This document shows positions 51,255 through 51,734 of a DNA stretch of 64,000 bases, piece by piece. Within the stretch, counting starts at the first letter, position 1. Each line of letters opens with the position of its first letter. The DNA is taken from NCBI RefSeq assembly GCF_058153355.1, contig NZ_CM177019.1. One strand, 5' to 3'. The notes under the pieces were generated by a model. The model made no database searches, was not told the origin of the DNA, and saw only the letters and a program-made list of their open reading frames with translations. The translations under genes were made by a program, and so were the position numbers.

Positions 51255-51734
51255 ATGGCAAATCCCGTCTATCTGACACTGAACGGAGAACTTCAGGGGC
51301 TGATTTCATCCGGATGCTCGTCAATGCCGTCCATCGGTAACAAAGCCCAGATTGCACATCAGGATCAGATCATGGTGACGTCACTGTCCCATGGTCTGAG
51401 CCGGGCGCAGAATGTCAACCACCAGGAGCTGACCATCACGAAACCGGTGGACAAATCTTCCCCCCTGCTGGGCAAGGCCATTTCGGAGAATGAATGTCTG
51501 ACCTGTGATTTTGTATTCTATCGCACCAACCGCTTTGGTGTTAATGAACCGTACTACAAGGTGAAACTGACTAACGCCCGGATCTCAAACATCGGCCTTA
51601 CCGTTCCCCATACCATTAACGACAGCCCAGGACAGCCGGAAGAGTCTGTGTCATTTACCTATGAGAGTATCAACTGGGAGCACAGCGTCGCCGGAACCAG
51701 TGCGTACAGCCTTTGGAGTGAACGGATTTTCTAA
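51255..51734 (+). CDS. hcp: Hcp-family protein (second, divergent hcp)
   Basis: 159 aa from MANPVYLTLNGELQGLISSG...; Hcp-like pattern (KPVDKSSPLL, FTYESINWEH); RBS aaggaga 7 nt upstream. Confidence 0.75.
   Translation: MANPVYLTLNGELQGLISSGCSSMPSIGNKAQIAHQDQIMVTSLSHGLSRAQNVNHQELTITKPVDKSSPLLGKAISENECLTCDFVFYRTNRFGVNEPYYKVKLTNARISNIGLTVPHTINDSPGQPEESVSFTYESINWEHSVAGTSAYSLWSERIF

What the first reader, a model, noticed from the sequence alone, without database searches (positions are those of the whole stretch)
51255..51734. Second, divergent hcp at the distal end of the cluster
A second Hcp-family gene with its own strong RBS lies after vasL and differs substantially from the hcp next to vgrG. 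Extra Hcp copies can act as effector chaperones or carry distinct cargo.
Basis: partly seen in the sequence, partly recalled or inferred. Interest (0 to 1): 0.3.

Follow-up and report, generated by a model that had tools for sequence, protein, structure and literature searches.

The report
Known second Hcp of E. coli T6SS
The gene is a real, intact second Hcp (type VI secretion tube-family protein) at the far end of a well-known E. coli secretion-system island; it is already annotated and described, so the finding is correct but ordinary.

Summary
Observation confirmed. Window 51255..51734 (+) encodes a full-length 159-aa Hcp/TssD (Pfam PF05638 1.9e-24, TIGR03344 9e-61, predicted Hcp fold). 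An AAGGAG box lies 7 nt upstream of its ATG, and it starts 17 nt after the vasL stop. It is 29% identical to the 172-aa Hcp beside vgrG, so it is neither a fragment nor a duplicate.

It is already known. The protein equals RefSeq WP_000013183.1. The same vasL-hcp-yafT arrangement occurs in 579 of 5426 complete E. coli genomes. By position and loop type it corresponds to Hcp2A of APEC; z0247 of EDL933 and hcp1 of PCN033 hold the same position.

New detail:
- It belongs to a 159-aa Enterobacteriaceae subfamily lacking 10 residues of the L2,3 loop that other Hcps need for ring stacking and secretion.
- It is under strong purifying selection (dN/dS 0.05-0.10).
- In five related lineages it is followed at once by variable cargo-like genes, three of them toxin/immunity-like. 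That slot is empty here.

Best reading: an accessory Hcp ring specialised for cargo, beside a canonical tube Hcp. This is inferred, not shown. In this genome tssM carries a private 8-bp frameshift, so the machine is probably dead. Interest is low.

The parts
51255..51734 (+). Distal hcp (tssD paralogue), 159 aa, short L2,3-loop type. Same position and loop type as APEC 'Hcp2A'.
   Evidence: identical to WP_000013183.1; Hcp fold.
51242..51247 (+). Shine-Dalgarno box AAGGAG, 7 nt upstream of the ATG.
   Evidence: Read directly from the sequence.
49879..51237 (+). vasL (ImpA_N + VasL domain protein), immediately upstream. The 17-nt gap implies co-transcription with hcp.
   Evidence: PF12486 3.4e-25, PF06812 1.9e-20. 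RefSeq annotation of identical loci.
51735..52076 (.). Empty 'cargo slot': 342-bp, 27% GC spacer between hcp and yafT. Relatives carry cargo-like genes here.
   Evidence: no ORF, no remnant of the 304-aa gene or ykfM. Filled slots in relatives.
51812..51851 (.). Strong hairpin with U-rich runs on both sides, between the convergent hcp and yafT. Probably a bidirectional terminator (inferred).
   Evidence: -19 kcal/mol, z = -4.45, 0 of 200 shuffles fold as well. The consensus scan missed it because its loop is long.
52077..52862 (-). yafT lipoprotein gene, convergent with hcp. It marks the end of this T6SS island in every lineage examined.
   Evidence: YafT (PF25851) at the same position in 7 other genera or species, with different outer neighbours.
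30935..31453 (-). Canonical, long-loop Hcp next to vgrG ('Hcp2B' / RS218 'Hcp2' class).
   Evidence: (60% identity to P. aeruginosa Hcp3). The hcp2 primers of PMC4224132 encode its termini.
28682..30718 (-). vgrG, downstream of the canonical hcp.
   Evidence: Phage_GPD, Gp5 domains.
32104..32658 (+). tssB/vipA, first gene of the structural operon that ends with the distal hcp. This gene is called 'hcp1' in some ExPEC papers.
   Evidence: PF05591. The primers of PMC4224132 map exactly at 32158 and 32638.
46349..49868 (+). tssM, split into two ORFs by an 8-bp deletion near 49262-49270. The IcmF_C domain falls out of frame.
   Evidence: None of 550 E. coli genomes shares the deletion.

Best explanation
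Identity (near certain): this is the distal Hcp paralogue of the E. coli T6SS island at aspV-yafT. The literature calls the island 'T6SS2' or 'T6SS-2', and one paper describes a yafT-bordered E. coli T6SS as subtype i1. The gene is the last one of the tssB...tssM-vasL structural operon and is translated from its own AAGGAG box. By position and loop type it corresponds to Hcp2A of APEC TW-XM. z0247 of EDL933 and hcp1 of PCN033 occupy the same position in the other E. coli lineage of the cluster.

Mechanism (inferred): it folds as an ordinary Hcp beta-barrel protomer and presumably forms hexameric rings. It belongs to a fixed-length (159 aa) subfamily that lacks 10 residues of the L2,3 'extended loop'. 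Other Hcps need that loop for ring-on-ring stacking and secretion. I therefore read it as an accessory Hcp ring. It would be loaded into, or ride on, a tube built mainly by the canonical long-loop Hcp encoded beside vgrG. It would be specialised for cargo that in relatives is encoded directly downstream (a glucosaminidase plus a small secreted-type protein; a roughly 300-aa membrane protein plus DUF1240/YkfM proteins).

In this genome the cargo slot is empty and tssM is frameshifted. The protein is therefore intact but most likely not being fired.
For: Family and fold:
- Searches place it in the Hcp family by sequence.
- The AF2 model has pLDDT 80.5. Foldseek gives TM 0.80-0.88 to Hcp3 (3he1) and 6a2v.

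Already known:
- It is identical to WP_000013183.1.
- 579 of 5426 E. coli genomes carry the locus.
- The literature describes a vipA2...hcp2A operon and a divergent hcp2B-vgrG2 operon, with Hcp2A lacking the Vs2 (L2,3) region (PMC5874247). It also describes z0247 and z0266 (PMC7216683).

Short loop:
- The 10-residue gap is present in all 30 subfamily members aligned.
- The loop is needed for stacking or secretion in other Hcps (PMC4650826; PMC5874247).

Constraint:
- dN/dS is 0.075-0.086 across genera and 0.05-0.10 within E. coli.

Linkage to cargo-like genes directly downstream of this Hcp:
- Hafnia and Enterobacter: glucosaminidase (PF01832, 1.1e-27) plus a 112-115-aa protein.
- E. coli variant lineage: a 304-aa protein with two hydrophobic segments plus YkfM.
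- Buttiauxella: hcp, a 291-aa gene and 3-4 DUF1240 genes sit together between tssM and vasL.

Not the main tube:
- Deleting the canonical Hcp2B abolishes delivery of the PAAR toxin XmtU although hcp2A is still present (PMC5874247).
- In PCN033, deleting the 519-bp hcp2 reduces killing. Of the three single hcp mutants, only that one is reported as impaired; the 483-bp distal hcp1 mutant is not (PMC4882540).
- Between the two E. coli cluster lineages the canonical Hcp is 94% identical and the distal Hcp only 57%.
Against: - The gene stays under strong purifying selection where the slot is empty: this E. coli lineage, Klebsiella spallanzanii and Kluyvera. A cis-encoded cargo therefore cannot be its only reason to exist.
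- Its fixed place in the core operon and its invariant length look like a structural part.
- Its divergence between lineages tracks TssB (55%), TssE (44%) and TssG (57%). That would also fit a protein co-evolving with the sheath and baseplate.
- The downstream proteins (287-339 aa) are large for the Hcp lumen (own knowledge).
- No binding, ring formation or secretion was tested here.
- Published statements on secretion of 'Hcp1' in RS218/DE719 concern tssB, not this gene, so they give no support.
Confidence: 0.45

Rival explanations
1. It is a genuine structural tube subunit of this T6SS. It would be co-essential with, or alternative to, the vgrG-adjacent Hcp, for example forming a defined section of the tube (at the baseplate or at the VasL-capped distal end) or mixed rings.
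For: - It is the last gene of the structural operon, tightly coupled to vasL.
- Its position and 159-aa length are conserved in 8 lineages.
- dN/dS is 0.05-0.10 even where no cargo gene follows.
- Its divergence between the two E. coli lineages parallels TssB, TssE and TssG.
- Antibodies to Hcp2A arise in infected ducks (PMC5874247).
Against: - It lacks the L2,3 loop segment whose deletion or mutation blocks stacking and secretion in other Hcps.
- The distal hcp1 mutant of PCN033 is not among those reported as impaired in killing.
- Hcp2A cannot replace Hcp2B for XmtU delivery.
Confidence: 0.3
2. It is mainly a secreted host-directed effector, as proposed for 'Hcp family proteins' of ExPEC (cytoskeleton rearrangement, adhesion and invasion, cytokine release).
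For: The PCN033 hcp1 (distal type) mutant is reported to affect interactions with eukaryotic cells and mouse colonisation (PMC4882540). ExPEC literature attributes host effects to T6SS2 'Hcps'.
Against: - The best-known host-effect data (RS218/DE719 'Hcp1') were obtained with tssB, not with this gene (PMC7216683 reaches the same conclusion for z0264).
- Recombinant Hcp2A did not impair macrophage phagocytosis, whereas Hcp1 and Hcp2B did (PMC5874247).
- Orthologues are common in environmental Enterobacteriaceae such as Buttiauxella, Hafnia and Kluyvera.
Confidence: 0.07
3. In this particular genome the gene is a functionless leftover of an inactivated T6SS.
For: - tssM has an 8-bp deletion that puts the IcmF_C domain out of frame.
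- An IS21 element and a group II intron lie in the vgrG-side region.
- E. coli O145 RM9872 keeps the identical hcp as an orphan after losing the whole cluster.
Against: - The hcp ORF itself is intact and identical in protein sequence to copies in genomes with intact tssM.
- The tssM lesion is private (0 of 550 genomes). It is therefore recent, or it is an assembly error.
- This reading concerns the state of one strain, not what the gene is.
Confidence: 0.15

Closest known systems
Hcp2A of APEC TW-XM T6SS2 ('type IIa' Hcp; Ma et al. 2018, PMC5874247). z0247 ('hcp1') of EHEC EDL933 (PMC7216683) and hcp1 of porcine ExPEC PCN033 (PMC4882540) hold the same position.
   Same: It is the last gene of the vipA...vasL structural operon of the same E. 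coli island. It has the short L2,3 loop (only 'Vs1' present). It pairs with a divergent hcp-vgrG operon. B2 ExPEC strain LF82 differs from the window protein at 5 of 159 residues.
   Different: I did not have the TW-XM sequence, so the equation with Hcp2A rests on position, loop type and modelling template (3he1), not on an alignment. The EDL933 and PCN033 genes belong to the other cluster lineage. A distal Hcp of that lineage, taken from strain EC20017429, has 160 aa, is 57% identical to the window protein and is followed by a 304-aa gene and ykfM. The 483-bp size of PCN033 hcp1 matches it.
Canonical Hcp beside vgrG in the same window (Hcp2B / XmtR / RS218 'Hcp2' class)
   Same: Same family, same fold and same cluster. 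It matches TIGR03344 equally well.
   Different: It is 29% identical to the distal Hcp. It keeps the full L2,3 loop and is 60% identical to P. aeruginosa Hcp3. It is 94% conserved between the two E. coli cluster lineages, against 57% for the distal Hcp. It is required for toxin delivery in published mutants.
P. aeruginosa Hcp3 (PDB 3he1) and the Hcp of PDB 6a2v: the closest solved structures
   Same: Hcp fold, TM 0.80-0.88, 34-38% identity. Hcp3 is a known cargo carrier (PDB 9qpe, an Hcp3-Tce1 complex, appears among the fold matches).
   Different: Both have the long L2,3 loop. No short-loop member has a solved structure among the matches.
Hcp-ET (Hcp with a C-terminal toxin extension; Ma et al. 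2017, as summarised in PMC6730261)
   Same: An Hcp used as a toxin vehicle in Enterobacteriaceae T6SS.
   Different: There is no extension here. The 159 aa end with the Hcp domain (profile 1-129 of 129), and all close homologues are about 159 aa. In relatives the cargo is a separate downstream gene, not a fusion.

Membership tests
Hcp / TssD (PF05638, TIGR03344) | Sequence match to the family profiles above the curated thresholds, over the full length | tested here: met
   PF05638: 86.8 bits against 23.5, profile 1-129 of 129. TIGR03344: 204.6 bits against 58.9, profile 1-166 of 167.
Hcp / TssD (PF05638, TIGR03344) | Hcp beta-barrel protomer fold | tested here: met
   AF2 model with mean pLDDT 80.5 and pTM 0.75. 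The best Foldseek matches are Hcp structures, led by 3he1, 6a2v and 5mxn at TM 0.77-0.88 and probability 1.00.
Hcp / TssD (PF05638, TIGR03344) | Encoded within a T6SS gene cluster | tested here: met
   tssB, C, E, F, G, tagH, tssJ, K, L, H, vasI, tssA, tssM and vasL lie upstream. vgrG and a second hcp are divergent.
Hcp / TssD (PF05638, TIGR03344) | Forms hexameric rings and is exported in a T6SS-dependent manner | not testable with these tools
   This needs biochemistry or secretion assays. The published 'Hcp1 secretion' data for RS218/DE719 concern tssB.
Canonical tube-forming Hcp (long-loop type, e.g. Hcp3, V. cholerae Hcp, Hcp2B) | Full-length L2,3 'extended loop', which is required for ring stacking and secretion in tested Hcps | tested here: not met
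   A 10-residue deletion relative to Hcp2B, Hcp3 and 6a2v, conserved in all 30 subfamily members aligned. Role of the loop: PMC4650826 and PMC5874247.
E. coli T6SS2 distal Hcp orthologue group (Hcp2A class) | Position directly after vasL, before yafT/aspV, and near-identity to annotated E. coli copies | tested here: met
   100% protein identity to WP_000013183.1. 579 of 5426 genomes have the same arrangement at 90% nucleotide identity or more. tRNA-Asp and dnaQ lie downstream.
Hcp-ET (extended-toxin Hcp) | C-terminal toxin domain fused to the Hcp domain | tested here: not met
   The protein has 159 aa and no sequence beyond the Hcp domain.
hcp-effector-immunity module (Hcp-dependent cargo encoded next to its Hcp) | Effector and immunity genes immediately downstream of the hcp | tested here: not met
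   In the window, a 342-bp spacer without ORFs or remnants follows hcp, then the convergent yafT. The feature is met in relatives, which supports 'works like' but not membership for this copy.

The most novel reading that the evidence does not exclude
The short-loop, 159-aa Hcp defines a distinct class of non-stacking or poorly stacking 'loader' rings. These rings would belong to a conserved end module, VasL-Hcp-[exchangeable toxin/immunity slot]-YafT, of Enterobacteriaceae T6SS clusters of this type. The core-genome lipoprotein YafT of E. coli K-12 would be an unrecognised accessory or remnant of that module. The window would then show the module in its 'unloaded' state.
Probability: 0.25. 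Interest if true: 0.45.

Novelty: already known. Interest (0 to 1): 0.15.

Why it matters
For this window it matters little. The gene is correctly recognised by standard annotation, and the two-Hcp layout of this E. coli T6SS is published.

Three points are useful to specialists:
- The comparative picture assembled here gives a concrete, testable reason why this system keeps two Hcps. The picture combines the conserved loss of the stacking loop, strong purifying selection, and an exchangeable toxin slot directly downstream in relatives.
- Part of the ExPEC 'Hcp1' literature actually studied TssB.
- This strain's T6SS is probably inactive because of a private tssM frameshift. That should temper any functional inference from this genome.

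Tried and rejected
- Fragment or duplicate: rejected. The profile is covered in full, and identity to the other Hcp is 29%.
- Hcp-ET fusion: rejected. There is no C-terminal extension, and homologues are all about 159 aa.
- Remnants of a deleted effector in the 342-bp spacer: none found by blastn or tblastx against the filled slot of the variant lineage.
- A small RNA in the spacer: no Rfam match at E up to 1; only tRNA-Asp was found.
- An own sigma-70 promoter upstream of hcp: none on the + strand in 50900-51254. Co-transcription with vasL is therefore assumed.
- Equating this gene with the 'secreted Hcp1' of RS218/DE719: rejected, because those primers map to tssB.
- Zhou et al. 2012 (PMC3294675) could not be read, as it is not held.
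- Literature searches for ykfM or aspV together with T6SS terms found nothing. The yafT search gave only a passing mention.
- The long upstream in-frame ORF 50868..51734 (288 aa, GTG start) is a mechanical extension overlapping vasL in another frame. It is not a gene.

Full report
**1. What is there**

The ORF list and the raw sequence show an ATG at 51255 and a TAA ending at 51734, giving 159 codons. AAGGAG lies at 51242-51247, 7 nt before the start. The upstream ORF stops at 51237, 17 nt before the start. That upstream ORF carries ImpA_N and VasL domains.

The 159-aa product covers the whole Pfam T6SS_HCP profile (E 1.9e-24). It scores 204.6 bits on TIGR03344 TssD, whose cut-off is 58.9. An AlphaFold2 model built on 32 aligned sequences has mean pLDDT 80.5. 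Its best structural matches are Hcp structures, at TM 0.80-0.88 to P. aeruginosa Hcp3 (3he1) and 6a2v.

The other Hcp of the window is at 30935..31453 on the minus strand, directly upstream of vgrG (28682..30718). The two proteins align over their full length at 29% identity.

**2. Context**

The window carries a complete T6SS gene set:
- On the + strand from 32104 to 51237: tssB, tssC, tssE, tssF, tssG, tagH, tssJ, tssK, tssL, tssH, vasI, tssA, tssM, vasL.
- On the - strand: the divergent hcp-vgrG unit.

Downstream of the distal hcp lie a 342-bp AT-rich spacer (27% GC), the convergent yafT, tRNA-Asp, dnaQ and rnhA. The spacer holds a strong hairpin at 51812-51851 (-19 kcal/mol, z = -4.45). 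I read it as a bidirectional terminator, which is an inference.

This is the aspV/yafT T6SS island of E. coli. The papers cited call it 'T6SS2' or 'T6SS-2'. One paper describes a yafT-bordered E. coli T6SS as subtype i1 (PMC5422975).

**3. It is already known**

- The protein is identical to RefSeq WP_000013183.1, annotated 'Hcp family type VI secretion system effector'.
- 579 of 5426 complete E. coli genomes have the same vasL-hcp-yafT stretch at 90% nucleotide identity or more, including LF82, APEC O18 and UM146.
- Ma et al. 2018 describe for APEC a 'vipA2-hcp2A' structural operon and a divergent 'hcp2B-vgrG2' operon. They class Hcp2A as type IIa, lacking the variable region Vs2 in loop L2,3 (PMC5874247).
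- The EHEC literature lists z0247 in the structural operon and z0266 beside vgrG (PMC7216683).
- PCN033 has a 483-bp hcp1 and a 519-bp hcp2 in the cluster (PMC4882540).

My equation of the window gene with Hcp2A rests on position, loop type and the modelling template (3he1). I could not align the TW-XM sequence itself.

**4. A nomenclature trap**

The 'hcp1' expression primers of Wang et al. 2014 (APEC DE719, following RS218) match window 32158-32175 and 32638-32655 exactly. That is tssB/vipA. Their 'hcp2' primers encode the termini of the vgrG-adjacent Hcp.

The much-cited 'T6SS-dependent secretion of Hcp1' and its host-cell effects therefore do not concern the distal Hcp. PMC7216683 independently suspects the same for z0264.

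**5. What distinguishes the distal Hcp**

- Loop: against the canonical Hcp of the window, Hcp3 and 6a2v, it lacks 10 residues of the L2,3 loop. The canonical copy is 60% identical to Hcp3, the distal copy 38%.
- Subfamily: a database search returned 455 homologues. Nearly all of the 120 listed have exactly 159 aa. They come from Salmonella, Citrobacter, Enterobacter, Klebsiella, Hafnia, Buttiauxella, Kluyvera and others. All 30 subfamily members aligned share the short loop with a conserved R-x-Q-N-V-N-H motif.
- Selection: dN/dS is 0.075-0.086 against Citrobacter, Hafnia and Salmonella orthologues. It is 0.05-0.10 within E. coli, lower than for vasL (0.14-0.23) or yafT (0.18-0.25).
- Role of the loop elsewhere: mutating two residues of this loop stops dodecamer stacking and secretion of B. 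pseudomallei Hcp1 (PMC4650826). Deleting Vs2 blocks secretion of APEC Hcp1 and Hcp2B (PMC5874247).

**6. Comparative genomics of the distal end**

In eight further lineages the island ends with YafT, and the Hcp is directly followed by a variable slot.

| Lineage | Gene(s) directly after the short-loop Hcp |
|---|---|
| Hafnia paralvei | 287-aa glucosaminidase (PF01832, 1.1e-27) + 112-aa protein with a signal-peptide-like N-terminus |
| Enterobacter soli | 287-aa glucosaminidase + 114-aa protein, then a second shorter glucosaminidase + 115-aa protein |
| E. coli variant lineage (309 genomes at 60-80% nucleotide identity; includes O157-size genomes) | 304-aa protein with two hydrophobic segments + YkfM |
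| Buttiauxella | 291-aa protein + 3-4 DUF1240 genes; hcp and this set sit together between tssM and vasL |
| Citrobacter freundii | 339-aa AcrVA2-like protein |
| Salmonella salamae | 301-aa protein of unknown family |
| Klebsiella spallanzanii | empty |
| Kluyvera | empty |

The 304-aa E. coli protein is 37% identical to a 300-aa Salmonella protein that precedes a DUF1240 gene. By eye, YkfM and that DUF1240 protein share a C-terminal motif. The window has the empty state, with no remnants.

**7. Which Hcp is the tube?**

Published genetics point to the canonical copy:
- Loss of Hcp2B abolishes delivery of the PAAR toxin XmtU in a strain that still has hcp2A.
- In PCN033 the hcp2 mutant loses killing of K-12. 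Of the three single hcp mutants, only that one is reported as impaired.

Between the two E. coli cluster lineages the canonical Hcp is 94% identical. The distal Hcp is 57%, TssB 55%, TssE 44% and TssG 57%.

I therefore favour an accessory, cargo-oriented ring (confidence 0.45) over a structural tube part (0.3). Three facts keep the structural reading alive: purifying selection in lineages with an empty slot, the fixed operon position, and the parallel divergence with sheath and baseplate proteins. Nothing here tests binding, ring formation or secretion.

**8. State in this genome**

tssM is split. An 8-bp deletion near 49262-49270 separates the IcmF N-terminal and central domains (ORF 46349..49294) from IcmF_C (ORF 49242..49868). 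None of 550 E. coli genomes with this tssM region shares the deletion. There is no homopolymer at the site that would suggest programmed slippage.

Unless this is an assembly error, the membrane complex is defective and neither Hcp is fired. E. coli O145 RM9872 shows a further stage of decay. There the whole cluster is deleted between yafV and a vasL remnant, yet the identical hcp is retained as an orphan.

**9. Verdict**

The functional suggestion is reasonable for the subfamily but is not supported by a cargo gene in this window. The feature is already known and annotated, so interest is low (0.15).

The most novel reading not excluded is a conserved VasL-Hcp-[toxin slot]-YafT end module with a non-stacking loader Hcp. 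I give it a probability of about 0.25; it would be of moderate interest to T6SS specialists.

Noticed in passing
window 46349..49868 (lesion near 49262-49270): tssM is frameshifted by an 8-bp deletion, which puts the C-terminal IcmF_C domain out of frame. None of 550 E. coli genomes carrying this region shares the deletion. It is either a private inactivating mutation or an assembly error.
   Followed up: yes
window 32104..32658 (primer sites 32158-32175 and 32638-32655): The 'hcp1' primers of PMC4224132 (APEC DE719, following RS218) map exactly onto tssB/vipA. The 'secreted Hcp1' of that literature is therefore the small sheath subunit, not an Hcp.
   Followed up: yes
window 52077..52862 (-); L005-L013, L017-L023: yafT (PF25851) sits convergent at the very end of this T6SS type in Citrobacter, Hafnia, Salmonella salamae, Enterobacter, Buttiauxella, Klebsiella spallanzanii and Kluyvera, while the genes beyond it differ. 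YafT appears to travel with the T6SS island rather than with the chromosome backbone. No T6SS role for it was found in the literature searched.
   Followed up: partly
L002 8908..10311; L003 8908..10311; L011 3188..4627; L019 6498..8909: A roughly 300-aa protein with C-terminal hydrophobic segments, followed by one to four YkfM/DUF1240 membrane proteins, recurs at different positions of these clusters. It looks like an uncharacterised toxin/immunity module. E. coli K-12 ykfM may be its orphan immunity gene (own inference).
   Followed up: partly
L004 (E. coli O145 RM9872) 6002..6651: The whole T6SS is deleted between yafV and a 153-bp vasL remnant. The distal hcp survives intact and is identical in protein sequence to the window copy.
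   Followed up: partly
window 19684..23123 (-): A group II intron reverse transcriptase/maturase ORF (19684..21105) and an IS21 pair, istA/istB (21154..23123), lie in the region downstream of vgrG. They probably disrupt the effector end of the island.
   Followed up: no
window 24047..28660 (-): Five ORFs follow vgrG. The first (433 aa) has a weak M23 peptidase domain (E 6.4e-07, just above the Pfam cut-off). The other four have no Pfam or NCBIfam match. They are candidates for a VgrG-linked effector, chaperone and immunity set.
   Followed up: partly
window 30935..31453 versus 48800..52100: The cluster is a mosaic. The vgrG-adjacent hcp is 100% identical in DNA to copies in strains such as ST95-32 and BEN2908. 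The tssM-vasL-hcp-yafT end is only about 95% identical to LF82, APEC O18 and UM146, and at best 98.8% identical to any complete genome.
   Followed up: partly
window 61414..64000 (-): A second tRNA-Asp lies next to 5S rRNA (61545..61660) and 23S rRNA (61756 to the window end). This is the end of an rRNA operon (aspU/rrnH by K-12 gene order, from memory). It is ordinary.
   Followed up: yes
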